Shown here piece by piece: positions 2,029-61,693 of a stretch of DNA of 64,000 bases (position 1 is its first letter; the number at the start of each line of letters is the position of its first letter). The position numbers and the translations under genes were made by a program. The stretch is from Escherichia coli (GTDB taxonomy: Bacteria; Pseudomonadota; Gammaproteobacteria; Enterobacterales; Enterobacteriaceae), in the NCBI RefSeq assembly GCF_011045215.1, contig NZ_CP049201.1. One strand, given 5' to 3'. The notes under the pieces were generated by a model. That model was given only the letters and a program-made list of their open reading frames with translations. It made no database searches and was not told the DNA's origin.

Positions 2029-2111
<83 letters not shown>

Positions 2112-2124
2112 GATCACAATACAA

Positions 2125-2460
2125 TCAGTTCTTTTTCACGAACTCAGATTTCAGTTTCATCGGACCAAAACCGTCGATTTTGCAATCGATGTTATGGTCG
2201 CCTTCAACCAGGCGGATGTTTTTCACTTTGGTGCCAATTTTCAGCATCGAAGAGCTACCTTTCACCTTCAGATCTTTAATGATGGTAACGCTGTCGCCGT
2301 CAGCCAGCAGATTGCCGTTAGCATCTTTAACGATCAGCTCGTCGCTTTCCTGTGCAGGTTCTGCGTCGTTCCATTCGTAGGCACATTCCGGGCAGATGTA
2401 CATGCCGTTATCTTCGTAGGTGTATTCGGAATTGCATTTTGGGCAGTGTGGTAATGACAT
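2125..2460 (-). CDS. phnA: Alkylphosphonate utilisation protein PhnA (YjdM), zinc-ribbon protein
   Basis: 111-aa protein [30 protein letters not shown]... from ATG at 2458-2460; the longer track ORF is an upstream extension. Confidence 0.9.
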
Positions 2461-2861
2461 GTGGATTTCCTCAAAAGTCAGCAGGGCAAAAGCGCCAAAA
2501 AACGGCAGATTGCCGAAAAAGGCCGCAATTATACACAAAATCCCTGAGTTTGTCGGGGGTACTGCTGATTTTAGACGACGATCGTTTTCATTTGAAAGGA
2601 AACGCAAAAAGAAAATAATCTTTTTGCCTCCATTTATTATTTAAGATAAGGTTAATGCTCTACTTGTTCTTTTTTTTATTCACATGATATTTTTATCTTT
2701 CTGACGTTTTAAACGTATCGGAAGATGTTATTTATTCTAATAAAAAACAACACTCTAAATATAAAATTATTTCTTGCAGTAATTATAAAAGCCGAAAACA
2801 GAACTCAAAAACAATCTGGCTAAATAAAAGTAATAAAATTTGCTTTAAGGAAGAATTTTCT

Positions 2862-5099
2862 ATGTACACACAGACCCTGTATGAGTTAAGTCAGGAGTCT
2901 GAACGCCTGTTACAGCTTTCTCGCCAACAGTTGCAGTTACTGGAAAAAATGCCTCTCTCTGTACCCGGAGACGATGCGCCACAACGGGCTTTACCCTGGA
3001 GTCAGCCTAATATCGCCGAGCGTCACGCGATGCTGAATAATGAGTTGCGTAAAATTTCCCGACTGGAAATGGTGCTGGCGATTGTCGGTACTATGAAAGC
3101 AGGGAAATCAACCACCATTAATGCCATTGTTGGTACGGAGGTACTGCCTAATCGCAATCGCCCAATGACTGCGCTGCCGACGCTTATTCGCCATACGCCC
3201 GGGCAAAAAGAACCGGTACTGCATTTTTCACATGTCGCACCAATCGATTGTTTAATTCAAAAATTACAACAGCGCCTGCGTGATTGCGATATTAAGCATC
3301 TGACCGATGTGCTGGAAATAGATAAAGATATGCGTGCGCTTATGCAGCGGATCGAAAATGGCGTCGCTTTCGAAAAATATTATCTGGGTGCCCAGCCTAT
3401 TTTTCATTGTCTGAAAAGTTTGAATGATTTAGTGCGACTGGCGAAGGCGCTGGACGTCGATTTTCCTTTTTCTGCTTACGCCGCCATTGAGCATATTCCC
3501 GTGATTGAAGTGGAGTTTGTCCATCTGGCGGGGCTGGAGAGTTATCCCGGTCAGTTGACGTTACTGGATACCCCCGGGCCAAATGAAGCCGGGCAACCGC
3601 ATCTGCAAAAAATGCTTAACCAGCAGCTGGCTCGCGCCTCGGCGGTACTGGCGGTGCTGGCGGTGCTGGATTATACGCAACTGAAATCGATCTCCGATGA
3701 AGAGGTCCGTGAGGCGATTTTGGCGGTGGGGCAATCGGTGCCGCTGTATGTGCTGGTCAATAAGTTCGATCAACAGGATCGTAACAGTGACGACGCCGAC
3801 CAGGTGCGGGCACTGATTTCCGGGACGCTGATGAAAGGCTGTATTACGCCACAGCAGATATTTCCGGTGTCGTCGATGTGGGGCTACCTGGCAAATCGGG
3901 CGCGCCATGAGTTAGCCAACAACGGTAAGTTACCAGCGCCAGAGCAACAACGCTGGGTGGAAGATTTTGCCCATGCCGCGCTCGGCAGGCGCTGGCGTCA
4001 TGCCGATCTGGCGGACCTCGAACATATTCGTCATGCTGCCGATCAGTTGTGGGAAGATTCGCTGTTCGCCCAGCCAATTCAGATGTTGCTTCATGCCGCT
4101 TACGCTAACGCCTCGTTGTATGCTCTGCGATCTGCCGCGCATAAACTGTTGAATTACGCGCAGCAGGCGCGGGAATACCTGGATTTTCGTGCGCACGGGT
4201 TAAACGTCGCTTGTGAACAATTGCGGCAAAATATCCACCAGATCGAAGAAAGTTTGCAGCTATTGCAACTCAATCAGGCGCAGGTGAGCGGCGAGATTAA
4301 ACATGAAATCGAGCTGGCCCTGACCTCCGCCAACCACTTTCTGCGTCAACAGCAAGATGCGCTGAAGGTGCAGTTAGCCGCCTTGTTTCAGGATGATTCG
4401 GAGCCGTTAAGCGAGATTCGTACCCGCTGTGAGACACTGTTACAGACGGCGCAGAACACCATCAGTCGCGACTTTACGCTGCGTTTTGCCGAGCTTGAAT
4501 CCACCCTTTGCCGGGTGTTAACCGATGTTATTCGCCCCATTGAGCAACAAGTCAAAATGGAATTGAGCGAGTCAGGGTTTCGTCCTGGGTTTCATTTTCC
4601 TGTTTTTCACGGCGTAGTTCCCCACTTCAACACTCGCCAGCTGTTCAGTGAAGTCATTTCGCGCCAGGAAGCAACGGACGAGCAGAGCACGCGTTTAGGC
4701 GTTGTGCGTGAGACTTTTTCGCGCTGGTTGAATCAGCCTGACTGGGGACGGGGAAATGAGAAATCCCCGACAGAAACGGTTGATTACAGTGTGTTGCAAG
4801 GAGCATTAAGCGCAGAAGTCGATCTTTATTGCCAACAAATGGCTAAAGTTCTGGCAGAGCAGGTCGATGAATCTGTTACGGCAGGCATGAATACTTTTTT
4901 CGCTGAGTTCGCTTCATGTTTGACGGAATTACAGACGCGTTTACGCGAAAGTCTGGCTCTGCGTCAACAAAATGAATCGGTGGTCAGGCTGATGCAACAG
5001 CAATTGCAGCAGACTGTGATGACTCACGGCTGGATTTACACCGACGCTCAGCTGTTACGCGATGATATTCAAACACTTTTCACGGCAGAACGATATTGA
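2862..5099 (+). CDS. crfC: Dynamin-like clamp-binding sister replication fork colocalisation protein CrfC (YjdA)
   Basis: 745-aa ORF with P-loop GTMKAGKST; recognised YjdA/CrfC sequence. Confidence 0.92.
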   Translation: MYTQTLYELSQESERLLQLSRQQLQLLEKMPLSVPGDDAPQRALPWSQPNIAERHAMLNNELRKISRLEMVLAIVGTMKAGKSTTINAIVGTEVLPNRNRPMTALPTLIRHTPGQKEPVLHFSHVAPIDCLIQKLQQRLRDCDIKHLTDVLEIDKDMRALMQRIENGVAFEKYYLGAQPIFHCLKSLNDLVRLAKALDVDFPFSAYAAIEHIPVIEVEFVHLAGLESYPGQLTLLDTPGPNEAGQPHLQKMLNQQLARASAVLAVLAVLDYTQLKSISDEEVREAILAVGQSVPLYVLVNKFDQQDRNSDDADQVRALISGTLMKGCITPQQIFPVSSMWGYLANRARHELANNGKLPAPEQQRWVEDFAHAALGRRWRHADLADLEHIRHAADQLWEDSLFAQPIQMLLHAAYANASLYALRSAAHKLLNYAQQAREYLDFRAHGLNVACEQLRQNIHQIEESLQLLQLNQAQVSGEIKHEIELALTSANHFLRQQQDALKVQLAALFQDDSEPLSEIRTRCETLLQTAQNTISRDFTLRFAELESTLCRVLTDVIRPIEQQVKMELSESGFRPGFHFPVFHGVVPHFNTRQLFSEVISRQEATDEQSTRLGVVRETFSRWLNQPDWGRGNEKSPTETVDYSVLQGALSAEVDLYCQQMAKVLAEQVDESVTAGMNTFFAEFASCLTELQTRLRESLALRQQNESVVRLMQQQLQQTVMTHGWIYTDAQLLRDDIQTLFTAERY

Positions 5100-5974
5100 C
5101 CAAGACGTTACTGGACGGCCCCGGTCGCGTGCTGGAGTCGGTTTATCCCCGCTTTTTAGTGGATCTGGCGCAGGGCGATGATGCCCGCCTTCCACAAGCC
5201 CATCAGCAGCAGTTTCGTGAACGACTGATGCAGGAACTTCTTGCGCGCGTGCAGCTTCAGACATGGACGAACGGCGGCATGTTAAATGCGCCGCTTAGCC
5301 TGCGTCTGACATTGGTGGAAAAACTGGCGTCGATGCTGGATCCCGGTCATCTGGCACTGACGCAGATCGCGCAGCATCTGGCGCTGCTGCAAAAAATGGA
5401 TTACCGCCAGCACTCTGCTTTCCCGGAGCTCCCCCAGCAAATTGCCGCCTTGTATGAGTGGTTTTCAGCCCGTTGTCGCTGGAAGGAAAAGGCGTTAACG
5501 CAACGAGGCCTACTGGTGCAGGCGGGTGAACAGAGCGAGCAAATTTTTACCCGCTGGCGTGCTGGGGCGTATAACGCCTGGTCGTTACCTGGGCGCTGTT
5601 TTATCGTTCTCGAAGAGTTGCGTTGGGGGGCATTTGGCGATGCCTGTCGTCTGGGAAGCCCGCAAGCGGTGGCGTTGTTGCTGGGTGATTTGCGCGTGAA
5701 AGCGACACAACATCTGGCAGAGAGTATCAATGCGGCCCCGACCACGCGTCACTATTACCATCAGTGGTTTGCCTCTTCGACCGTTCCGACGGGCGGGGAT
5801 CATGCTGATTTTTTAAGTTGGCTGGGAAAGTGGACCACGGCAGATAAACAACCCGTTTGCTGGTCAGTGACCCAACGCTGGCAAACTGTCGCGCTGGGGA
5901 TGCCACGACTCTGTTCAGCGCAGCGTCTGGCGGGGGCAATGCTCGAGGAAATCTTCTCTGTAAATTTGGTGTAA
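5096..5974 (+). CDS. yjcZ: YjcZ, conserved protein co-transcribed with crfC
   Basis: 292-aa ORF overlapping the crfC stop by 4 nt; recognised YjcZ sequence. Confidence 0.88.
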   Translation: MTKTLLDGPGRVLESVYPRFLVDLAQGDDARLPQAHQQQFRERLMQELLARVQLQTWTNGGMLNAPLSLRLTLVEKLASMLDPGHLALTQIAQHLALLQKMDYRQHSAFPELPQQIAALYEWFSARCRWKEKALTQRGLLVQAGEQSEQIFTRWRAGAYNAWSLPGRCFIVLEELRWGAFGDACRLGSPQAVALLLGDLRVKATQHLAESINAAPTTRHYYHQWFASSTVPTGGDHADFLSWLGKWTTADKQPVCWSVTQRWQTVALGMPRLCSAQRLAGAMLEEIFSVNLV

Positions 5975-6237
5975 ATAATCAGTTACATCAATGAGTCCTA
6001 AACGAAATCCATGTGTGAAGTTGATCACAAATTTAAACGCTGGTAGGGTAAAAAGGTCATTAACTGCCCAATTCAGGCGTCAACTGGTTTGATTGTACAT
6101 TCCTTAACCGGAGGGTGTAAGCAAACCCGCTACGCTTGTTACAGAGATTGCATCCTGCAATTCCCGCTCCCCTTTTGCGGCCGTCGCGCTGATTTTTCTG
6201 GCGTTTGCGGAAATGGGCCAACTCTGCGAGGAAAGCT

Positions 6238-7740
6238 ATGCTGAAAAGGAAAAAAGTAAAACCGATTACCCTTCGTGATGTCACCATTATTGATGACGGT
6301 AAACTGCGTAAAGCCATTACCGCAGCATCACTGGGTAATGCAATGGAATGGTTTGATTTTGGTGTTTATGGTTTTGTTGCTTACGCATTAGGTAAAGTTT
6401 TTTTCCCGGGGGCTGACCCCAGCGTGCAGATGGTTGCTGCACTTGCCACTTTCTCCGTTCCCTTTCTGATTCGACCGCTTGGCGGACTCTTCTTTGGTAT
6501 GTTGGGCGATAAATATGGTCGCCAGAAGATCCTCGCTATCACTATTGTGATTATGTCGATCAGTACGTTCTGTATTGGCTTAATACCGTCCTACGACACG
6601 ATTGGTATTTGGGCACCGATTCTGCTGTTGATCTGTAAGATGGCACAAGGTTTCTCGGTCGGCGGTGAATATACCGGGGCGTCGATATTTGTTGCGGAAT
6701 ACTCCCCTGACCGTAAACGTGGCTTTATGGGCAGCTGGCTGGACTTCGGTTCTATTGCCGGGTTTGTGCTGGGTGCGGGCGTGGTGGTGTTAATTTCGAC
6801 CATTGTCGGCGAAGCGAACTTCCTCGACTGGGGCTGGCGTATTCCGTTCTTTATTGCTCTGCCGTTAGGGATTATCGGGCTTTACCTGCGCCATGCGCTG
6901 GAAGAAACTCCGGCGTTCCAGCAGCATGTTGATAAACTGGAACAGGGCGACCGCGAAGGTTTGCAGGATGGCCCGAAAGTCTCGTTTAAAGAGATTGCCA
7001 CTAAATACTGGCGCAGCCTGTTGACATGTATTGGTCTGGTAATTGCCACCAACGTGACTTACTACATGTTGCTGACCTATATGCCGAGTTATTTGTCGCA
7101 TAACCTGCATTACTCCGAAGACCACGGGGTGCTGATTATTATCGCCATTATGATCGGTATGCTGTTTGTCCAGCCGGTGATGGGCTTGCTGAGTGACCGT
7201 TTTGGCCGTCGTCCGTTTGTGCTACTTGGTAGTGTTGCACTGTTTGTGTTGGCGATCCCGGCGTTTATTCTGATTAACAGTAACGTCATCGGCCTGATTT
7301 TTGCCGGGTTACTGATGCTGGCGGTGATCCTTAACTGCTTTACGGGCGTTATGGCTTCTACCTTGCCAGCGATGTTCCCGACGCATATCCGTTACAGCGC
7401 GCTGGCGGCGGCATTTAATATTTCGGTGTTGGTTGCCGGTCTGACGCCAACACTGGCGGCCTGGCTGGTCGAAAGCTCGCAGAATCTGATGATGCCAGCC
7501 TATTACCTGATGGTAGTGGCGGTGGTTGGTTTAATCACCGGCGTAACCATGAAAGAGACGGCAAATCGTCCGTTGAAAGGTGCAACACCGGCGGCGTCAG
7601 ATATACAGGAAGCGAAGGAAATTCTCGTCGAGCATTACGATAATATCGAGCAGAAAATCGATGATATTGACCACGAGATTGCCGATTTGCAGGCGAAACG
7701 TACCCGCCTGGTGCAGCAACATCCGCGAATTGATGAATAA
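6238..7740 (+). CDS. proP: Proline/glycine-betaine:H+ symporter ProP (MFS osmosensor)
   Basis: 500-aa protein starting MLKRKKVKPITLRDV at ATG 6238; C-terminal coiled-coil HEIADLQAKRTRLVQQHPRIDE. Confidence 0.95.
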   Translation: MLKRKKVKPITLRDVTIIDDGKLRKAITAASLGNAMEWFDFGVYGFVAYALGKVFFPGADPSVQMVAALATFSVPFLIRPLGGLFFGMLGDKYGRQKILAITIVIMSISTFCIGLIPSYDTIGIWAPILLLICKMAQGFSVGGEYTGASIFVAEYSPDRKRGFMGSWLDFGSIAGFVLGAGVVVLISTIVGEANFLDWGWRIPFFIALPLGIIGLYLRHALEETPAFQQHVDKLEQGDREGLQDGPKVSFKEIATKYWRSLLTCIGLVIATNVTYYMLLTYMPSYLSHNLHYSEDHGVLIIIAIMIGMLFVQPVMGLLSDRFGRRPFVLLGSVALFVLAIPAFILINSNVIGLIFAGLLMLAVILNCFTGVMASTLPAMFPTHIRYSALAAAFNISVLVAGLTPTLAAWLVESSQNLMMPAYYLMVVAVVGLITGVTMKETANRPLKGATPAASDIQEAKEILVEHYDNIEQKIDDIDHEIADLQAKRTRLVQQHPRIDE

Positions 7741-7854
7741 GCTGAAACGGATGGCCTGATGTGACGCTGTCTTATCAGACCAACAATTGAACTCTTAAGG
7801 TTCACTTAATCTCTGCCGCGCATACTCTGCTCCAGGTTAACGGAGGAGAGTGCA

Positions 7855-11329: not shown

Positions 11330-11432
11330 CACGGTGTTTCCATCGAACAAAGTGCGCATATGCTCGCAAAGCAAAATTAAGCCAACCTTAAGTTCTTAAG
11401 GTTGGCTTTTATCTTTGCTGGATTAAGGGGAA

Positions 11433-12770
11433 TTAATCTTTGCTTATTGGTGCATCTAAGGGATACGGGTTTTTATGCAGCCGGTTGTAATTCAGCGCAT
11501 ACATGGCGGTGATGACCATCAGGGTGACAAATGACCACATAACCTCTTTCGCCCCGGACCCCACCACGGCCCAGATGCAGTAGAGGAAGGCAATGGTAGT
11601 AACTGCCAGATATGCCGGGCGTGCTTTACCAAAGTGACCGTGTCCGAGCAGCAGTAACGCCGCACAGGTGTAAAGATATGGCACCAGTGTAAAGATGACC
11701 GAGACGGAAGAAACCAGACCGAATTCTTTGGTCGCGTTTGGTGAAATGCTGCTGAGCTGGAAGATGGTCATCAAAATACCGACGATAATCAGCCCCGCCA
11801 CTGGCGTACCCGCTTTATTTACACGGGCAAAAATCGGTGGGAACAGTCCGTCATCGGCAGCGGCTTTCGCCGTTTGACCCGCCAGCAATGTCCAGCCGCC
11901 CAGTGAACCTAAGCAACCCGCAGCTGCGCAGAAGGAAACAATGGCCCCGGCGGTGTCACCCAACGCCATCCGTGCGGCATCACCGAATGGCGAAGCAGAA
12001 ACGCGCAGTGCGGCATTAGGGATCATCCCCATAATCGCGGTGGTGGAGAGCACATAGCAAACGGCGGCAATCAATACCCCACCAATGGTGGCGATAGGGA
12101 CGTTGCGTTTCGGGTTTTTCACCACACCTGCGGCAACGGAGGCACTTTCCACACCGATGAACGACCACAGCGTAACGTTAAGGGTACTTTGAATTGCACC
12201 GAAGGTGCCCAGGCCGCTGACGTTCCATGCCGCCATATAGGTTTCACCACGGAACCAGAACCAGCCAAATACGGCAATCCCGACGATGGGGATCAGCGCC
12301 AGCACGGTGGCAACGGCCTGCACACGGGTGATCATTTTCGGACCGACAATGTTCAGCAGGACGAAGATCCACAGCACCATGACGCAGGTGATGGTTAATA
12401 CCAATGGATCTTTCAGAATCGGGAAGAAGTAACTTAAATATCCTACGCCAATGACCACCATGGCGATATTGCCGATCCAGCAGGCCAGCCAGTAGAGGAC
12501 GTTGGTTTGATAACCGAGAAACGGGCCAAAGCAGCGGCGGGCGTAAGCGTAAGAACCACCAGGACTTGGGTCGAGGAACGACATTTTGGCGTATACCATC
12601 GAGAGCCCCAGCGCACCGATAATCGTCACCAACCATCCATAAATGGCAATCCCGCCAGTGGAGGCCAGGTTTGCAGGTAACAGAAAAACACCTGACCCCA
12701 TAATATTCCCCGACACCATCAGGGTGACGGGGATTAAGCCCACTTTGTGAGCATCAGCATCCGAAGACAT
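11433..12770 (-). CDS. adiC: Arginine:agmatine antiporter AdiC
   Basis: 445-aa APC-family transporter [32 protein letters not shown]... Confidence 0.95.
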
Positions 12771-12906
12771 AATTAAACTCCTGCGAAGGCGAGCTTCGTG
12801 ACAATAAATTACGTCATATCATACGCCTGCATTCGATAGTTGAATTATTATCGACCGGGTTATCGCTGATGCCGTTATTAATATAGCTCTTCGTTAAGGT
12901 TAAAAA

Positions 12907-13668
12907 TCAGGCGACAGTGCGTTCTCTGTGCTGACTAACATAATGCAGCGGCGTCATACCGTAGAAGTCTTTAAAGACAGAAATAAAGTACGACGTACTG
13001 TTGTAGCCGCAGGACTGTGATACCTGAGAGATATTTTTACCGTCCATCATTAATTCATTTACGGCATAACGCATGCGGCAGGTGGTGATTATTTGGCTAT
13101 AACTGGTGTTTTCGCTTTTCAGCTTTTTCTTTAACAGACTTGGGCTAAGACATAAACAACTGGCTACCATACTAAGATTCCAGTCTTTGTGAATATCGCT
13201 TTCAATAATTTGATAAACGCTGTCACTTACACAATTACGTAACATATACATCATTAATGAAAGGAATTTTTTACTGTCGAGAAAACGGGATAGCACCGTG
13301 AATAATAATGCGCGTGTTCGTTCCTTTTCTGACTCAGTTTCTGCGGGCATCATGCTGTGTTGCGCGGCAACGCGAAAGACGTCTGGTGTCAGGCATGGCA
13401 GGGTGAGAATGGGCGTAGCGCTACGTTGCCATACTGGTATTTGCGAGAGATCTTTATTCAGAAACCGGAGGTAATCTTTGATGATGTCGTGACTAATATG
13501 AGCAACCAAAGTGTTGTTAAGAGAGGAGACGTCGATAATATTATTTTCACAATTTAATAACGCCATATGGTTAGCTTTAAGGCTAATAGGTTCTTTCCCA
13601 TTCACCCTTATCCAGACATCTTTTTCAGTCAATAAAACAATACAAGGTTGGTCGCTGCAAATCCTCAT
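12907..13668 (-). CDS. adiY: AraC-family regulator AdiY
   Basis: 253-aa ORF with C-terminal AraC HTH; position between adiC and adiA. Confidence 0.93.
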   Translation of the reverse strand: MRICSDQPCIVLLTEKDVWIRVNGKEPISLKANHMALLNCENNIIDVSSLNNTLVAHISHDIIKDYLRFLNKDLSQIPVWQRSATPILTLPCLTPDVFRVAAQHSMMPAETESEKERTRALLFTVLSRFLDSKKFLSLMMYMLRNCVSDSVYQIIESDIHKDWNLSMVASCLCLSPSLLKKKLKSENTSYSQIITTCRMRYAVNELMMDGKNISQVSQSCGYNSTSYFISVFKDFYGMTPLHYVSQHRERTVA

Positions 13669-13992
13669 ACATGTACTCCTGAGTGCGAATAAAAGACCAG
13701 TTCTCGCTAAAGCAAAGCGATACCGGGAAATGGTTATATAATTGTATGATGAATATAAACATGCATAAAAATAACGAGTTTTACTAATATTACAAATTTT
13801 TATAGAAATTTCTCATGTACATATTTTTTTACAGGATAAATAACAGGCAAAAAAAAGCGCGGGGTGGGGCCGCGCAAAAAGTATGACATTTTTGTTTGCA
13901 GCAATTTTTATGAAAACGTTGCCATACTCAAAAGGCCTAAGGCCAGGCGGCGTAATGTTATTTAAACAATTACGCCTTCAGCGGAATAGTGG

Positions 13993-16260
13993 TTACGCTT
14001 TCACACACATAACGTGGTAAATACCGTCAATAATTTCAGTCCCTTCAGTTTCGTGTTCAAATCCAGGGAAATGATGATCCCAGGATTGCAGCGAGCGTAA
14101 ATAACTTACTTGCGGACTGTTTTTATCGCCGAAGTTTTCACCAGACAGCAGCATCGGGATTCCTGGCGGATACGGGATAACTGAGTTTGCCGCGATACGT
14201 CCTGGCAGATTTTCAATGGATACCAGTTCGACATTGTTGTCGACAATCGCGTTGTACGCTTCACGCGGGGTGATTTCCGCCACTGGCAGGCCGGAATAGG
14301 CTTCGTTCAACCGTGCGCCAGGGTTGTTTTCTTTCAGCCAGGCAAACATGGTGTCACCCAGATCGTGAATCCCCATGTTCGCATAAGTGTCAGGATATTG
14401 TTCAACAAGTTCCGGCATCACCTGCGCCAGCGGTGTGTTGGCGTCATAGTGGCGTTTGAAGGAGCAAAGGGTGTTAACCAGAGTCCCCCATTTCCCACGG
14501 GTTACGCCCATAGAGAACAGGAACATAATTTGGAAGTCAGTGGTGCGGGTAGGCACAATGCCGTGGCGACCAAGCCAGGCAGTGACCAGCGCCGCCGGAA
14601 CACCGGTTTCTTCCAGTTCACCATCTTCACCCATTCCCGGAGCAAGGATGCTGACTTTAATCGGGTCGAGCATACTCCAGTTATCCGGAATATCTTTGAA
14701 GCCGTGCCAGCTTTCGCCCGGATGCATTACCCAGCAGTCCTGAACGGTGGTCAGCAGTTTGGTTGGTGCGTCAGCAAAGTCATAGGTTTTGCCGGTTTGT
14801 GGGTCGGTGACGACTTCTTTGTTCCACGGTTTGAAGAACCAGCTACCGTCAGCGGTGAACTCTTTATACAGCCGCGCCATCGCCTGACGGAAATCAACCG
14901 CTTCGTCGATCACTTCCTGCGTCAGTGACAGGCCACTGTTGCCGTCCATCATCGACACCGCCACGTCGTTGGATGCGCAGATGGCATACAGCGGGGAGGT
15001 GGTGGCATGCATCATGTAGGCCTGGTTGAAGCGGGAGAAGTTAATCGCCCCACGACCTTCACGTACATGAATATAAGAGGCCTGTGACAGCGCATTCAGT
15101 AGTTTGTGGGTGGAGTGGGTGGCGAAAACGGTAGGACCGTTGTGATCGCCAGGTTCGCCGCGCATGGCATAGTGATCGGCATAGATCGGGTTGAAACGTG
15201 CATAGCCGTACCAGGCTTCGTCAAAGTGCAGACGATCGGAGGTTTTTTCCAGCAGATCCTGCGCTTCTTTAGCGTTATAACACACGCCGTCATAGGTGCA
15301 GTTGGTCACCACGCAGTAAGACGGTTTTTGCCCGGCTTTGTCTTTGGTCAGCGGGCTTTCACTGATTTTCTTCTGCAAGGTTTCAGGTTGCATTTCCTGC
15401 GGATAGATTGGCCCGATAATGCCGTAGCGGTTGCGGCTTGGCACCATATAGACCGGTTTCGCGCCTGTCAGCATCAAACCTTGTTCGATGGATTTATGGC
15501 AGTTACGGTCAACAACCACGACATCGTTATCGGTCATGCAAGCCTGCATGATGGTGCGGTTAGAGCCGGAAGTACCGACGACTACCGACCAGGAGCGATC
15601 GGCACCAAATACGCGTGCGGCATATTTTTCGCTTTCGCCAAATGCGCCAGTATGGTCAAGCAAAGAACCGAGGGAAGTTCGTTCGATGCCCATGTCGGTG
15701 CGGAACAGATTTTCACCATAGTAGTCATGGTAGAAACGTCCGGCGGGTGTTTTGGTAAAACCAACGCCGCCCTGGTGGCCTGGCGCTGCCCAGGAATATT
15801 CATGGATGTCGCTATATTTCATCAGTGCGCTGAACAGTGGCGGCAACAGCTGCTGGCGGTAGCGGGTCATCGCGGCAACGGCGCGTCCGGCGATAAAGTC
15901 GGCGGTATCTTCCAGAATCCAGGCGAATTCATCGACAAGCTCCAGCAGATCCCTGTCCATTGCGGCGAGGGCTTTTTCCCGATCGCCCAACAGGAAGACC
16001 GGCACGTTTTGTTGGCGCTCATGAAGCTTACTGATCAATTGTCTGACGTTTTGATGTTCGTCCGGATGTTCCATTTGATAGCTGAACATCAGGCAGTCAA
16101 TGGCTTCGTTTGAAGAGAGAATGGCAAAACCATCATCAAAGGAGGTGGATTTAATCACGGTAACATTTTGCTGGCTTAAAGCATCTGCCAGACGCTCAAC
16201 AGCGTTACCGACCCAGGTGTCTTGATGGAGAAACTCGCTTTCAACAATTAATACTTTCAT
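13993..16260 (-). CDS. adiA: Biodegradative arginine decarboxylase AdiA
   Basis: 755-aa Orn/Lys/Arg decarboxylase (PLP-lysine motif STHK), start at MKVLIVESE. Confidence 0.95.
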   Translation of the reverse strand: MKVLIVESEFLHQDTWVGNAVERLADALSQQNVTVIKSTSFDDGFAILSSNEAIDCLMFSYQMEHPDEHQNVRQLISKLHERQQNVPVFLLGDREKALAAMDRDLLELVDEFAWILEDTADFIAGRAVAAMTRYRQQLLPPLFSALMKYSDIHEYSWAAPGHQGGVGFTKTPAGRFYHDYYGENLFRTDMGIERTSLGSLLDHTGAFGESEKYAARVFGADRSWSVVVGTSGSNRTIMQACMTDNDVVVVDRNCHKSIEQGLMLTGAKPVYMVPSRNRYGIIGPIYPQEMQPETLQKKISESPLTKDKAGQKPSYCVVTNCTYDGVCYNAKEAQDLLEKTSDRLHFDEAWYGYARFNPIYADHYAMRGEPGDHNGPTVFATHSTHKLLNALSQASYIHVREGRGAINFSRFNQAYMMHATTSPLYAICASNDVAVSMMDGNSGLSLTQEVIDEAVDFRQAMARLYKEFTADGSWFFKPWNKEVVTDPQTGKTYDFADAPTKLLTTVQDCWVMHPGESWHGFKDIPDNWSMLDPIKVSILAPGMGEDGELEETGVPAALVTAWLGRHGIVPTRTTDFQIMFLFSMGVTRGKWGTLVNTLCSFKRHYDANTPLAQVMPELVEQYPDTYANMGIHDLGDTMFAWLKENNPGARLNEAYSGLPVAEITPREAYNAIVDNNVELVSIENLPGRIAANSVIPYPPGIPMLLSGENFGDKNSPQVSYLRSLQSWDHHFPGFEHETEGTEIIDGIYHVMCVKA

Positions 16261-16458
16261 CATTGCTTACCCGGTTATGAAGGAATCTTCGTTGCGGGCA
16301 AGTATCTTCCGGCCTTTTCGGGCTGTAAAGCGCGTGAAAAACAAACATTTTTGAAATATTTGTTTTTATAAACAATGTGTTATGTGATTATTTTAAATTA
16401 TTTTCACTGCTTATTATCGACGGCTAAACTATTTTTTTGGCTGATACTGATATCGTCT

Positions 16459-17367
16459 TTAGCCGGGAAACGTCTGGCGGCGCTGTTGGCTAAGTTTGCG
16501 GTATTGTTGCGGCGACATGCCGACATATTTGCCGAACGTGCTGTAAAAACGACTACTTGAACGAAAGCCTGCCGTCAGGGCAATATCGAGAATACTTTTA
16601 TCGGTATCGCTCAGTAACGCGCGAACGTGGTTGATGCGCATCGCGGTAATGTACTGTTTCATCGTCAATTGCATGACCCGCTGGAATATCCCCATTGCAT
16701 AGTTGGCGTTAAGTTTGACGTGCTCAGCCACATCGTTGATGGTCAGCGCCTGATCATAGTTTTCGGCAATAAAGCCCAGCATCTGGCTAACATAAAATTG
16801 CGCATGGCGCGAGACGCTGTTTTTGTGTGTGCGCGAGGTTTTATTGACCAGAATCGGTTCCCAGCCAGAGAGGCTAAATCGCTTGAGCATCAGGCCAATT
16901 TCATCAATGGCGAGCTGGCGAATTTGCTCATTCGGACTGTTTAATTCCTGCTGCCAGCGGCGCACTTCAAACGGGCTAAGTTGCTGTGTGGCTCGTGATT
17001 TGATCACCATGCCGTGAGTGACGTGGTTAATCAGGTCTTTATCCAGCGGCCAGGAGAGAAACAGATGCATCGGCAGATTAAAAATCGCCATGCTCTGACA
17101 GGTTCCGGTATCTGTTAGTTGGTGCGGTGTACAGGCCCAGAACAGCGTGATATGTCCCTGATTGATATTCACTTTTTCATTGTTGATCAGGTATTCCACA
17201 TCGCCATCGAAAGGCACATTCACTTCGACCTGACCATGCCAGTGGCTGGTGGGCATGATATGCGGTGCGCGAAACTCAATCTCCATCCGCTGGTATTCCG
17301 AATACAGCGACAGCGGGCTGCGGGTCTGTTTTTCGTCGCTGCTGCACATAAACGTATCTGTATTCAT
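16459..17367 (-). CDS. melR: Melibiose operon regulator MelR (AraC family)
   Basis: 302-aa ORF MNTDTFMCSSDEKQTRSPLSLYSEYQRMEIEFRAPH... Confidence 0.95.
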   Translation of the reverse strand: MNTDTFMCSSDEKQTRSPLSLYSEYQRMEIEFRAPHIMPTSHWHGQVEVNVPFDGDVEYLINNEKVNINQGHITLFWACTPHQLTDTGTCQSMAIFNLPMHLFLSWPLDKDLINHVTHGMVIKSRATQQLSPFEVRRWQQELNSPNEQIRQLAIDEIGLMLKRFSLSGWEPILVNKTSRTHKNSVSRHAQFYVSQMLGFIAENYDQALTINDVAEHVKLNANYAMGIFQRVMQLTMKQYITAMRINHVRALLSDTDKSILDIALTAGFRSSSRFYSTFGKYVGMSPQQYRKLSQQRRQTFPG

Positions 17368-48134: not shown

Positions 48135-48237
48135 TCGAAAGTGTTCAGCCAGCCCCCTGCATCCAGCAGGGGGCTGTAATAAGCATTTTTGTACCGGATA
48201 AAAAGCGGCGATATTGCCGCTACTGAATGAGGTGATT

Positions 48238-49482
48238 ATGGCGTTACCTGCGGAAAGCCTGATTGCGTATACCCTGGAAAAAATGAAGCACCGTATGACC
48301 ACCGGAGCCCGGAAGGAGGAGGGGCGAATACGCAGCGGACTGTTGTTCACCGGCAATGTGCACGATGCCATTCCGCGTCGTCTGTTGCTGGATACGCGTC
48401 TTTCACCGCTGGACAAGATGGCATGGATGATGATCCGGCTGTATGCGCAGAATAATGAGGGGGCCATTTTTCCTACTTACGATGAACTGCAACTGCAGCT
48501 GGCATCGCCGGGAAAGGGAAAAGCTTCCAGAGAAACCGTCAGCCGGGTATTGCTGATGTTGCGGATCACGGGCTGGCTGAGCCTGTGTAAACGGGTACGT
48601 GATGATAAAGGCCGGGTTCGGGGAAACATTTACGCCCAGCATGACGAGCCCCTGACGTTCTGCGATGCAGAGGCGATGGATCCGCGTTATCTGGATATAG
48701 TGGCAGAAGCCTGTATGAGCCGGAACCGGACCATCAGTCAGACGGCACGGGATATTCTTTGTGAAATAAAAAATGATCCGGGAATGCGTCACTATCACAG
48801 CCATATCAGTCAGCTGGAAGCCCGGATAGGAAGTGCCCAGACACCGGGGCAGATGGCTGCCCGTCAGCGGGTGACAGAGGACAGAATGCGGCCGGGTTCG
48901 GAAACCGAACCAGTGGTGAGAACACTGAGTTCGGCACCGGAAAAGCTGAGTTCGGAAACCGAACCGGGTAAAAAAATGGGGCAAAAAAGACAGAGTTCGG
49001 ATCCCGAACCATCAGGAAAATCAGCAGGTTATCACAGAGTCCGGGAACCGAACCATTACGTACGTAATATCACACACAGTGTGATTAAAAACACGTACGT
49101 ACTGCCGGCGTCGCTGACGGGGCAAATCAGGGAGGAAGATGCCATCATGCTGACTAGTCAGTTGCAGGCGTTGCCGGAAGCGCTGGCACAGGGGGTGCTG
49201 GAAAGCCTGTCAGGGATGCTGGGCAGTCAGTCACTGCAGAACCCGGTGGGCTGGCTGCTTGCAGTGCTGAAGCGTGCCCGGGAGGGAAATTTTTATCCAC
49301 CGAAACAGAAACAGCGCGTCGCTGCATCAGCCACCATACAGGCGGGAGCGGGAGGGCGCACCACTTCGCAGCCTGTTGTCACCCGGAAACGTACAGAACC
49401 CATTTCAGCAGAACGTCTGAGTGGCATTGTGGCAGGACTACGGGCCTCCCTTCGCAACCGTCCTGCGATGAGAGCCCGGTGA
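48238..49482 (+). CDS. Island replication-protein-like gene (resembles the SPI-7 STY4528-type family)
   Basis: ATG 48238 preceded by gaggtga; ~414 aa; immediately followed by the iteron array; family assignment from memory, unverified. Confidence 0.6.
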   Translation: MALPAESLIAYTLEKMKHRMTTGARKEEGRIRSGLLFTGNVHDAIPRRLLLDTRLSPLDKMAWMMIRLYAQNNEGAIFPTYDELQLQLASPGKGKASRETVSRVLLMLRITGWLSLCKRVRDDKGRVRGNIYAQHDEPLTFCDAEAMDPRYLDIVAEACMSRNRTISQTARDILCEIKNDPGMRHYHSHISQLEARIGSAQTPGQMAARQRVTEDRMRPGSETEPVVRTLSSAPEKLSSETEPGKKMGQKRQSSDPEPSGKSAGYHRVREPNHYVRNITHSVIKNTYVLPASLTGQIREEDAIMLTSQLQALPEALAQGVLESLSGMLGSQSLQNPVGWLLAVLKRAREGNFYPPKQKQRVAASATIQAGAGGRTTSQPVVTRKRTEPISAERLSGIVAGLRASLRNRPAMRAR

Positions 49483-49506: not shown

Positions 49507-50076
49507 AGAGCAAAAATCAACCAGTGCTGCCAGTGGCAGCATAGAGCAAAAATTAGCCAGTGCTGCTCGGGGCAGCATAGAGCAAAAATTAGCCAGTGCT
49601 GCCCGGGGCAGCATAGAGCAAAAATCAGCCAGTGCTGCCCGGGGCAGCATAGAGCAAAAATCAGCCAGTGCTGCCCGGAGCAGCATAGAGCAAAAATTAG
49701 CCAGTGCTGCCCGGGGCAGCATAGAGCAAAAATTAAGCAGTGCTGCCCGGGGCAGCATAGAGCAAAAATTAGCCAGTGCTGCCCGGGGCAGCATAGAGCA
49801 AAAATCAGCCAGTGCTGCCCGGGGCAGCATAGAGCAAAAATTAAGCAGTGCTGCCCGGGGCAGCATAGAGCAAAAATTAGCCAGTGCTGCCCGGGGCAGC
49901 ATAGAGCAAAAATCAGCCAGTGCTGCCCGGGGCAGCATAGAGCAAAAATCAGCCAGTACTGCCCGGAGCAGCATAGAGGAAAAATTAGTCAGTGCTGCCC
50001 GGGGCAGCATAGAGCAAAAATTAGGCAGTGCAGCCCGGGACAGCATAGAGTGAAAATTAGCCAGTGCTGCCAGTGT
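49507..50076. repeat. Tandem array of ~15 direct 36-bp repeats, each containing the 17-bp perfect palindrome tgctgcccggggcagca (iteron-like; candidate origin or centromere)
   Basis: Unit agagcaaaaat(t/c)agccagtgctgcccggggcagcat repeated head-to-tail with few substitutions; first and last units degenerate. Confidence 0.9.
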
Positions 50077-50354
50077 CACCAAAGAACAAAAATTATGCTG
50101 CGTCAGCAGCATGGAAGGCGGCGGCACTGAATATCCTGAAACATCTGACGGTAAACCGCCGAAGCCCGGCGTCAGCCGGAAACGTCCTGACAGGATGCAG
50201 TGCTCTCCCCGGCCCTGCCAGACCCTGTTTGTTTCAGGAAAAAGCCTGTGTCACATAAAAGAACCGGAGTACAGAGGTAAAACAGAATACTTGCCGCCGT
50301 TTTTTCCGTCAGTATACTTTTTCGTGCTGAAATTCTGGCTAAGGAAAGATTTTT

Positions 50355-54248: not shown

Positions 54249-54614
54249 TTCCGGGTTGACTTTCCATGGATGTGTTTTAAAAATAACCGGGCTTATTTGC
54301 TGCATCTGCAGCCAGCCAATGTTTCAGCAGTCTGAGAGAAACGCCTTCGGGTGACTGCCAGCCAACGTTTCACCGGCCTGAGAGAAACACCTTCGGGTGG
54401 CCGGAATATCCTCGTAGCCTGAAAGAGGATGCCTGTGGGCGGTACATCCGTTTAACCTCTGGAAACGGATATCACTGTTCAGTGATTGAGGTCTTTTTAC
54501 TTCTCAGACAGCCGGAATTCAGCTGATCCGGCATCCCCGACGGGAACATTCACTTCCGTCAGGGATGGTGATGTTCTCCGTCATCACATTTTTTAACTCC
54601 ATGGAGAAATCATC

Positions 54615-61469: not shown

Positions 61470-61625
61470 CCCGTGTGCAGGCAAATGTTCCTTGCAAAAT
61501 GGCATCTGAATCGATCGCAGTTTGGCATTCGAATCGATCATGATTTGGCATCCATCTCCGATCACAGTTTGGCATCACAATCGATCACGATTTGGCATAC
61601 TTCCGATCATTGATTGGAATTCGCC
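61470..61625. repeat. IS21-family terminal region with multiple direct repeats (putative transposase binding sites)
   Basis: Five copies of tttggcat-N8-10-gatc(a/g) immediately upstream of istA. Confidence 0.7.
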
Positions 61626-61693
61626 AGTCACTCCGGGAATTAACTCTTTTCACCACAGTCTCCATTGCCGTGTTTAAACCAGTGGAGACGTCA

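What the first reader, a model, noticed from the sequence alone, without database searches (positions are those of the whole stretch)
3642..3668. Three tandem copies of a 9-bp unit inside crfC (encoding AVL-AVL-AVL)
gcggt(a/g)ctg is repeated three times in frame, giving ...ASAVLAVLAVLDYT. From memory the K-12 protein has two copies (742 versus 745 aa), so this would be an in-frame expansion of a slippage-prone repeat inside a dynamin-like GTPase.
Basis: partly seen in the sequence, partly recalled or inferred. Interest (0 to 1): 0.2.

Follow-up and report, generated by a model that had tools for sequence, protein, structure and literature searches.

The report
Rare 9-bp in-frame duplication in crfC
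This E. coli strain carries a real but very rare three-residue (Ala-Val-Leu) insertion in the GTPase domain of CrfC/RdcA. A 9-bp mini-repeat went from two copies to three, an ordinary slippage-type mutation whose effect on the protein is untested.

Summary
Window 3642-3668 reads GCGGTACTG GCGGTGCTG GCGGTGCTG, in frame in crfC (= rdcA = yjdA; 2862-5099, 745 aa), giving AVL-AVL-AVL.

K-12 has two copies (742 aa), as do 5409 of 5410 matching records of complete E. coli genomes. The only other three-copy genome there (PE144) duplicated the other unit, so it arose separately.

The window allele is the PapM-32-1 allele plus this 9-bp gain and one private substitution (A13S). An independent assembly of run SRR11014969 reproduces it, so an assembly artefact is unlikely.

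Public assemblies also hold a K-12-type backbone with three copies, and with one copy in two forms. These are the reciprocal products of the two kinds of gain. Small gains and losses therefore recur here at low frequency, as expected for slipped-strand mispairing.

The insertion sits at the helix/strand junction between the G3 (DTPG) and G4 (NKFD) motifs. This stretch has no indel in about 250 homologues. AlphaFold keeps the strand, lengthens the preceding helix by three residues and loses 11-13 pLDDT points locally.

Verdict: a real, rare, ordinary allelic variant. It is not phase variation, its function is untested, and interest is low.

The parts
2862..5099 (+). crfC (= rdcA = yjdA), 745-aa dynamin-like GTPase; 742 aa in K-12
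   Evidence: ORF and translation; RefSeq annotation of matching genomes; Pfam Dynamin_N E=9e-17; AlphaFold model with mean pLDDT 89.5, best Foldseek matches IniA, BDLP and SynDLP at E about 4e-13
3642..3650 (+). repeat unit 1, GCG GTA CTG (A261 V262 L263)
3651..3659 (+). repeat unit 2, GCG GTG CTG (A264 V265 L266). This unit, or equivalently unit 3 or the register CTGGCGGTG at 3648-3656, is the extra copy absent from K-12 and PapM-32-1.
   Evidence: alignments (gap placed at 3648-3656)
3660..3668 (+). repeat unit 3, GCG GTG CTG (A267 V268 L269)
3641..3669 (+). full 9-bp periodic tract (3.2 copies). Units 2-3 with their flanks form a perfect 22-bp periodic run, CTGGCGGTG CTGGCGGTG CTGG.
   Evidence: Tandem Repeats Finder; sequence
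3087..3113 (+). G1 / P-loop GTMKAGKST (residues 76-84)
   Evidence: translation; G76, K79, G81, K82, S83 and T84 invariant in 109 homologues
3567..3578 (+). G3 motif DTPG (residues 236-239), 22 residues upstream of the repeat
3759..3770 (+). G4 motif NKFD (residues 300-303)
2898..2898 (+). private G->T substitution (A13S) at a conserved N-terminal position. It is the only other difference from the PapM-32-1 allele.
   Evidence: exact 41-mer absent from all 5426 complete genomes
2985..2987 (+). codon 42 CGG (L42R), inside the published clamp-binding motif 41-QLALP, which reads QRALP here
   Evidence: motif from PMC6374313; exact 41-mer in 42 of 5426 genomes
5096..5974 (+). rdcB (yjcZ), intact partner gene overlapping the crfC stop by 4 nt
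   Evidence: Pfam YjcZ E=1.9e-144 over the full profile; annotation

Best explanation
The feature is a genuine, strain-specific allele of crfC/rdcA. A 9-bp unit of a pre-existing imperfect two-unit direct repeat (GCGGTACTG GCGGTGCTG, encoding AVL-AVL) was duplicated in tandem. The most likely route is slipped-strand mispairing during replication: the nascent strand re-pairs one unit back, using the CTGG / GGCGGT microhomologies. Because the unit is 9 bp, the reading frame is kept and the protein gains Ala-Val-Leu. The insertion lies in the G domain between G3 (DTPG) and G4 (NKFD), at the junction of the helix after switch II and the buried strand AVLAVLD. Because the inserted residues repeat the strand sequence, the last two copies can still form the strand, and the first copy is absorbed as a roughly one-turn extension of the helix. 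Shown here: the sequence, its rarity, the recurrence of reciprocal gains and losses, and the conservation of the site. Inferred: the slippage mechanism and the structural accommodation. Unknown: whether GTPase activity, DgcE activation or clamp-related function is altered.
For: 1. The repeat is confirmed, is in frame and is not a chance pattern.
2. A synthetic two-copy query matches 5409 of 5410 records at 95% identity or more over its full length. Only PE144 falls to 90.7%, and it has three copies.
3. The window crfC differs from PapM-32-1 crfC only by the 9-bp gain and one SNP. No other difference occurs between window 2431 and 7829.
4. A Logan assembly of run SRR11014969 is 100% identical to the window over 6014 bp, including all three copies.
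5. Independent events exist. The window allele is GTA-GTG-GTG; PE144 and a K-12-type backbone are GTA-GTA-GTG. One-copy alleles exist in both a GTA form and a GTG form on K-12-identical DNA. These are the exact reciprocal products.
6. Every change is by one whole unit, bounded by microhomology.
7. The site is highly constrained. The G3-G4 spacing is 65 aa in 118 of 121 Enterobacteriaceae cluster representatives. There is no indel between K-12 residues 248 and 268 in 132 homologues of 31-57% identity.
8. AlphaFold models differ as expected. K-12 has helix 246-258 and strand 261-267, with pLDDT 91 and 95 for the two 10-residue blocks. The window allele has helix 246-261 and strand 264-270, with pLDDT 78 and 84.
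Against: 1. The mechanism is inferred from the products; no mutation rate was measured.
2. Both assemblies showing the window allele probably derive from the same isolate, so a mutation that arose during laboratory culture cannot be excluded.
3. The A-A-G alleles in PE144 and on the K-12-type backbone have identical local flanks. They could share one origin spread by recombination, which lowers the count of independent gains from three to two.
4. The local pLDDT drop may only reflect the alignment gap at the inserted residues.
Confidence: 0.85

Rival explanations
1. Assembly or sequencing artefact: the extra 9 bp does not exist in the organism.
For: The exact 745-aa protein is on record from only one NCBI genome (QIF14896.1 / WP_164475953.1; one contig of 5,409,430 bp) and one read-set assembly. 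No genome in the RefSeq complete set carries this allele.
Against: An independent Logan assembly of SRR11014969 gives the identical sequence over 6 kb. A clean insertion of one whole 9-bp unit is not a typical read-error pattern. Analogous one-unit gains and losses occur in unrelated assemblies.
Confidence: 0.04
2. A selected, function-tuning copy-number polymorphism. Under this reading, 1, 2 or 3 AVL units set different GTPase or DgcE-activating properties of RdcA, and the variants are adaptive, for example by loss or alteration of biofilm-matrix activation.
For: Gains and losses recur. The site is in the G domain next to switch II. Per PMC6510439, the RdcA nucleotide state decides DgcE activation: T103D is inactive and K82A is active. 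The window allele also carries a second private protein-altering change (A13S) and no synonymous change relative to its nearest allele.
Against: Two copies are present in 5409 of 5410 records. Each variant is seen in only a few contigs (1-21). The segment is indel-free in about 250 homologues, which argues for purifying selection against length change. Two private changes in 2.2 kb is not statistically distinguishable from chance. No phenotype data exist.
Confidence: 0.08
3. Classical phase-variable contingency locus, with repeat-number changes switching the gene on and off.
For: It is a tandem repeat inside a coding region whose copy number varies between strains.
Against: The 9-bp unit cannot shift the reading frame. 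All observed alleles (739, 742 and 745 aa) are full-length ORFs. Only 1-3 copies are seen, and four copies were not found on the K-12-type backbone, the only one looked up. Variation is extremely rare among complete genomes.
Confidence: 0.01
4. The three-copy tract was imported by recombination from another lineage or species in which three copies are the norm.
For: The region around crfC is mosaic relative to PapM-32-1, with SNPs clustered at 11.4-17 kb of the window.
Against: No orthologue examined has three copies: 118 Enterobacteriaceae representatives have a 65-aa spacing, and other genera read AVLAVM. The flanks are identical to PapM-32-1 for 5.4 kb apart from one SNP. The only other three-copy type has a different internal unit.
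Confidence: 0.02

Closest known systems
E. coli K-12 CrfC / RdcA (YjdA; UniProt RDCA_ECOLI, 742 aa)
   Same: Same gene, same locus (yjdM - crfC - rdcB - proP) and 99% protein identity. G1-G4 motifs, operon partner RdcB and overall predicted fold are all retained.
   Different: One extra AVL unit (745 aa), A13S, L42R in the published clamp-binding motif, and five further substitutions: Q134K, Y349H, P359A, A408M and R647G in window numbering.
Short in-frame tandem-repeat indels generated by slipped-strand mispairing (established knowledge of short direct-repeat instability in bacteria)
   Same: The ancestral allele already has two head-to-tail units. Changes are by whole units, are bounded by microhomology, and recur as reciprocal gain and loss products.
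   Different: The tract is very short and imperfect (2 units, 8/9 identical), so instability is low. Only 1 of 5410 complete-genome records deviates.
Bacterial dynamin-like proteins with solved structures (Nostoc BDLP 2j68, M. smegmatis IniA 6j72, SynDLP 7zw6)
   Same: Best structural matches of the model, at E about 4e-13. The strand AVLAVLD corresponds to the hydrophobic strand after switch II; BDLP reads HAILFVM in the weak HMMER alignment.
   Different: Only about 14% sequence identity. CrfC is described as soluble and lacking the typical membrane-binding motif (PMC6374313, PMC6510439). None of these structures tests a three-residue insertion at this junction.
E. coli PE144 crfC (WP_104214061.1) and the K-12-type 745-aa allele (P0287, UniRef UPI000B7FBDA9)
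   Same: Identical protein-level change (AVL x3) at the same site.
   Different: A different unit was duplicated (GTA-GTA-GTG against GTA-GTG-GTG here), on different backbones. They therefore arose in separate events.

Membership tests
CrfC/RdcA orthologue (dynamin-like GTPase) | G1 P-loop GxxxxGKS/T | tested here: met
   GTMKAGKST at residues 76-84; invariant across 109 homologues
CrfC/RdcA orthologue (dynamin-like GTPase) | G2 threonine (T103), G3 DxxG and G4 N/TKxD | tested here: met
   T103 invariant; DTPG at 236-239; NKFD at 300-303
CrfC/RdcA orthologue (dynamin-like GTPase) | Pfam Dynamin_N above the gathering threshold, and a bacterial-dynamin fold | tested here: met
   PF00350 at 62 bits against a cut-off of 27; AlphaFold pLDDT 89.5; Foldseek top hits IniA, BDLP, SynDLP and mitofusin
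CrfC/RdcA orthologue (dynamin-like GTPase) | Conserved locus and operon with rdcB (yjcZ) | tested here: met
   rdcB overlaps the crfC stop; Pfam YjcZ E=1.9e-144; yjdM-crfC-rdcB-proP order as in annotated genomes
CrfC/RdcA orthologue (dynamin-like GTPase) | N-terminal beta-clamp-binding motif 41-QLALP (PMC6374313) | tested here: inconclusive
   Q41 is retained but the motif reads QRALP (L42R). The same variant occurs in 42 of 5426 genomes. Clamp binding cannot be tested with these tools.
CrfC/RdcA orthologue (dynamin-like GTPase) | GTP hydrolysis, DgcE/RdcB interaction and clamp binding of this allele | not testable with these tools
   Requires biochemistry or genetics. The K-12 protein was characterised in PMC6510439 and PMC6374313.
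Slippage-type short tandem-repeat indel polymorphism | The ancestral allele already holds two or more head-to-tail units | tested here: met
   K-12 and PapM-32-1 read GCGGTACTG GCGGTGCTG, 8/9 identical
Slippage-type short tandem-repeat indel polymorphism | Length changes by whole units between otherwise near-identical alleles | tested here: met
   +9 bp against PapM-32-1 with one other difference in the gene. On K-12-type DNA, +9 with 0 differences and -9 with 0-1 difference outside the repeat.
Slippage-type short tandem-repeat indel polymorphism | Recurrent, independent gains and losses | tested here: met
   Two gain products (A-G-G and A-A-G) and two loss products (GTA and GTG)
Slippage-type short tandem-repeat indel polymorphism | Elevated mutation rate at the tract relative to unique sequence | not testable with these tools
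   Needs a fluctuation or reporter assay
Phase-variable contingency locus | Repeat changes shift the reading frame or the promoter spacing | tested here: not met
   The 9-bp unit lies inside the CDS, and all alleles remain full-length
Phase-variable contingency locus | Frequent copy-number variation among close relatives | tested here: not met
   5409 of 5410 complete-genome records carry two copies

The most novel reading that the evidence does not exclude
The AVL mini-repeat at the switch-II-helix/strand junction could be a low-frequency mutational 'dial' on the RdcA GTPase cycle. In this reading, the 1-, 2- and 3-copy alleles differ in GTP binding or hydrolysis, and hence in activation of the master diguanylate cyclase DgcE. 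Rare variants such as this one, here paired with a private A13S change, would be selected shifts in the motility/biofilm balance in particular hosts.
Probability: 0.07. Interest if true: 0.35.

Novelty: new member of a known kind. Interest (0 to 1): 0.12.

Why it matters
In practice it matters little. It is one rare natural allele of a non-essential, already characterised gene, made by a textbook mutational mechanism.

It has modest value in two ways. First, it is a natural three-residue insertion in a G-domain segment that is otherwise indel-free across distant homologues. It could therefore serve as a ready-made probe of how much the junction after switch II tolerates. Second, the 1/2/3-copy series could be used to test how RdcA nucleotide state couples to DgcE activation.

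For annotation, the 745-aa length should be treated as a true variant, not an error.

Tried and rejected
1. Metagenome scan for three or more copies (TCGGCGGTRCTGGCGGTRCTGGCGGTRCTGG). It returned 12 hits, all unrelated G+C-rich repeats from other organisms and none in crfC. This says nothing about frequency, because E. coli is sparse in that collection.
2. PDB sequence search. Only the P-loop region aligns significantly. The alignment of the repeat region to BDLP is below threshold and was used only as a hint. Structural placement rests on the AlphaFold models instead.
3. Literature. No paper describing this repeat polymorphism was found. PMC4759930 reports an unrelated crfC nonsense mutation (E693Stop) from laboratory evolution.
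4. Phase variation was rejected because the unit is a multiple of three and almost no variation is seen.
5. Artefact was rejected because of the independent Logan assembly and the analogous alleles elsewhere.
6. Import from another species was rejected because no orthologue has three copies.
7. Four-copy alleles were looked up only on the K-12-type backbone and not found. A PapM-type (A13) three-copy allele and a window-type (S13) two-copy allele were also not found. The order of the two private changes therefore cannot be resolved.
8. The antisense ORF at 3561-3908 (115 aa) overlaps the repeat, but nothing supports it as a gene.

Full report
**Observation.** Window 3642-3668 reads gcggtactg gcggtgctg gcggtgctg. 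The only long ORF here is 2862-5099 on the + strand (745 aa). Position 3642 is a codon start, so the tract encodes AVL-AVL-AVL within ...QQLARAS AVLAVLAVL DYTQLKS.... Tandem Repeats Finder reports one array in the gene: 3641-3669, period 9, 3.2 copies, 95% matches. It is the only 3 x 9-bp tandem with at most 1 mismatch in the whole window. None occurred in 200 dinucleotide-preserving shuffles.

**What the gene is.** Megablast against 5,426 complete E. coli genomes places the segment in the gene annotated 'crfC: clamp-binding protein CrfC', between yjdM and rdcB/proP.
- Pfam gives Dynamin_N (E=9e-17). The downstream ORF 5096-5974 is a full-length YjcZ/RdcB (E=1.9e-144).
- The motifs are G1 GTMKAGKST (76-84), T103, G3 DTPG (236-239) and G4 NKFD (300-303).
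- An AlphaFold model (mean pLDDT 89.5) best matches the bacterial dynamin-like proteins IniA, BDLP and SynDLP, then mitofusins, at Foldseek E about 4e-13.
- In the literature the protein is CrfC, with a clamp-binding motif 41-QLALP and a role in nucleoid partition (PMC6374313).
- It is also RdcA, a GTPase that together with RdcB activates the diguanylate cyclase DgcE. In that work T103D was inactive and K82A active (PMC6510439).

**Copy number elsewhere.**
- K-12 (TOP10) crfC is 742 aa with two units, GCG GTA CTG GCG GTG CTG. The UniProt K-12 entry RDCA_ECOLI is the same 742-aa sequence.
- A 107-nt three-copy query gave only one record above 95% identity, strain PE144. The other 5,409 records aligned with a 9-nt gap.
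- The reciprocal test used a synthetic 98-nt two-copy query. It matched all 5,410 records over their full length: 5,409 at 95% or more, and PE144 alone at 90.7%.
- A one-copy allele would have fallen in the 90-95% band and a four-copy allele in the 80-90% band. None did.

**Origin of the window allele.**
- The closest crfC in the collection is that of PapM-32-1, a baboon isolate from the Gambia, at 99.6%.
- Base-by-base, the two genes differ only by the 9-bp gain and one G->T change at 2898 (A13S). There is no other difference between window 2431 and 7829.
- The exact 745-aa protein is on record as QIF14896.1 / WP_164475953.1 from one 5.41-Mb contig.
- It also occurs in a Logan assembly of run SRR11014969 whose contig is 100% identical to the window over 6,014 bp.
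- I infer from accession proximity only that the source belongs to the same primate study, which used Unicycler Illumina plus nanopore hybrid assemblies (PMC7643976).
- An assembly artefact is therefore unlikely. A mutation that arose in culture cannot be excluded.

**Recurrence.**
- PE144 has GTA-GTA-GTG whereas the window has GTA-GTG-GTG. Different 9-mers were duplicated: GCGGTACTG in PE144 and CTGGCGGTG here.
- The PE144-type protein occurs on 21 contigs.
- I made synthetic alleles and looked them up by exact sequence. The K-12 protein with three AVL units exists (P0287, 18 contigs). The K-12 protein with one unit also exists (P0288, 10 contigs).
- The following were not found: four copies on the K-12-type backbone (the only one looked up), three copies on the P0004 backbone, three copies on the PapM (A13) backbone, and two copies on the window (S13) backbone.
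- At the DNA level, the K-12-type three-copy allele is GTA-GTA-GTG on K-12-identical DNA.
- The one-copy alleles come in two forms, GCG GTA CTG (L025, L026) and GCG GTG CTG (L027, L028). These are the reciprocal deletion products of the two duplication types.
- That makes at least four independent events (two gains, two losses), and five if PE144 and the K-12-type gain are separate.
- All changes are by one whole unit bounded by CTGG or GGCGGT microhomology. This is the signature expected of slipped-strand mispairing. The mechanism is inferred, not measured.
- A metagenome scan for three or more copies found only unrelated sequences.

**Where the insertion sits in the protein.**
- In 121 CrfC cluster representatives that carry both motifs (Escherichia, Citrobacter, Salmonella, Kosakonia, Enterobacter and others), the G3-to-G4 segment is 65 residues in 118. 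It is 68 only in the two three-copy alleles. Other genera read AVLAVM.
- In 132 more distant homologues (31-57% identity, one per 50% cluster), there is no gap or insertion anywhere between K-12 residues 248 and 268.
- In the same set, S260-AVLAVLD-YTQL is among the best conserved stretches. Length variation is confined to the loop after GQ(246) and to the segment before the next strand.
- The K-12 AlphaFold model has helix 246-258, a two-residue loop and strand 261-267 (AVLAVLD). Block pLDDT is 91 and 95.
- The window model has helix 246-261 and strand 264-270 (again AVLAVLD), with block pLDDT 78 and 84. Confidence in most other blocks is equal or higher.
- The prediction is that the strand is preserved by the two C-terminal units and the extra unit lengthens the helix after switch II by three residues.
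- The confidence drop may partly reflect the alignment gap at those residues. Neither model says anything about activity.

**Interpretation.** This is a real, rare, in-frame one-unit expansion of a weakly unstable mini-repeat. It lies in a segment of the G domain that evolution otherwise keeps at fixed length. It is most simply read as slippage noise that is neutral to mildly deleterious.
- It is not a phase-variation switch. The unit is a multiple of three, all alleles are full-length, and variation is extremely rare.
- A functional effect is possible in either direction, given the published RdcA genetics. Loss of folding or of GTP hydrolysis would mimic the inactive T103D or deletion alleles. 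Loss of GTP binding alone could leave the protein active, like K82A (PMC6510439).
- The window allele carries a second private, protein-altering change (A13S, in none of 5,426 genomes) and no synonymous change relative to its nearest relative. This is noted, but two events are too few to infer selection.

**Novelty and score.** The gene, the mutational mechanism and even the sequence itself (in public databases) are known. The copy-number series at this site does not appear in the papers searched. I rate it a new member of a known kind, with low interest (0.12).

Noticed in passing
window 2985-2987 (crfC codon 42): The published beta-clamp-binding motif 41-QLALP reads QRALP here (L42R, CTG->CGG). 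The exact 41-mer carrying this base occurs in 42 of 5426 complete E. coli genomes from varied hosts, including PapM-32-1. It is therefore a minor natural allele, with an untested effect on clamp binding.
   Followed up: partly
window 2898 (crfC codon 13): A private G->T change (A13S) in the conserved N-terminal 'SQEAERLL' helix. The 41-mer centred on it is absent from all 5426 complete genomes. It and the 9-bp gain are the only differences from PapM-32-1 between window 2431 and 7829.
   Followed up: yes
window 38292-64000: Core-genome synteny with PapM-32-1 ends at 38343. Window 38292-38340 (minus strand) is the 3' 49 nt of tRNA-Phe (pheU), too short for ARAGORN to call. Everything beyond is an SPI-7/PAPI-1-type integrative conjugative element. 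In the related island of strain RM11911 the genes are annotated dnaB-PI helicase, ParB, STY4528-family replication protein, topoisomerase III, STY4534, Ssb, PilL and TIGR03759. The island runs off the end of the window.
   Followed up: partly
window 49507-50095: A 36-bp unit repeated 16.4 times (92% matches, score 968), directly downstream of the STY4528-family 'island replication protein' ORF (48214-49482). The unit AGAGCAAAAATTAGCCAGTGCTGCCCGGGGCAGCAT contains a palindrome. In RM11911 the array has 20.5 copies, with the same AGAGCAAAAATTA..CCAGTG part but a different palindromic core (TGTTGGCAGTGCCA). It may be an iteron-like or origin-like array of the ICE. It is annotated there only as a hypothetical protein on the minus strand.
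   Followed up: partly
window 61500-61623: Degenerate 23/47-bp tandem repeats (TGGCATCCGAATCGATCACAATT, about 4.3 copies, 70-77% matches) inside the ICE, just upstream of a 555-aa ORF (61592-63259).
   Followed up: no
window 54311-54399: A 46-bp unit repeated 1.9 times (score 143) in the ICE between the topoisomerase III gene and the STY4534-family gene. The same repeat is present in RM11911 (L006 11088-11176).
   Followed up: no
window 2030-2114 against L005 11069-11153 and 11169 onward: PapM-32-1 carries an extra tandem copy of an about 85-bp segment of the yjdN-yjdM intergenic region that is single-copy in the window.
   Followed up: no
window 11400-17100: Nearly all SNPs relative to PapM-32-1 cluster here (eptA-adiC-adiY-adiA region), whereas 2431-7829 is almost identical. 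This looks like a recombination mosaic.
   Followed up: no
protein P0060 (NCBI, 525-aa CrfC fragment): Another in-frame tandem duplication in the same G-domain region of an E. coli CrfC: DTPGPNEAGQPHLQKMLNQQ occurs twice in tandem (20 aa).
   Followed up: no
L002 (E. coli TOP10, NZ_CP080620.1) 1-1463: In this K-12 derivative, casB and casA lie immediately next to yjdM in place of yjdN and the phn operon. This is a rearrangement or deletion junction specific to that strain or assembly, and is not present in the window.
   Followed up: no
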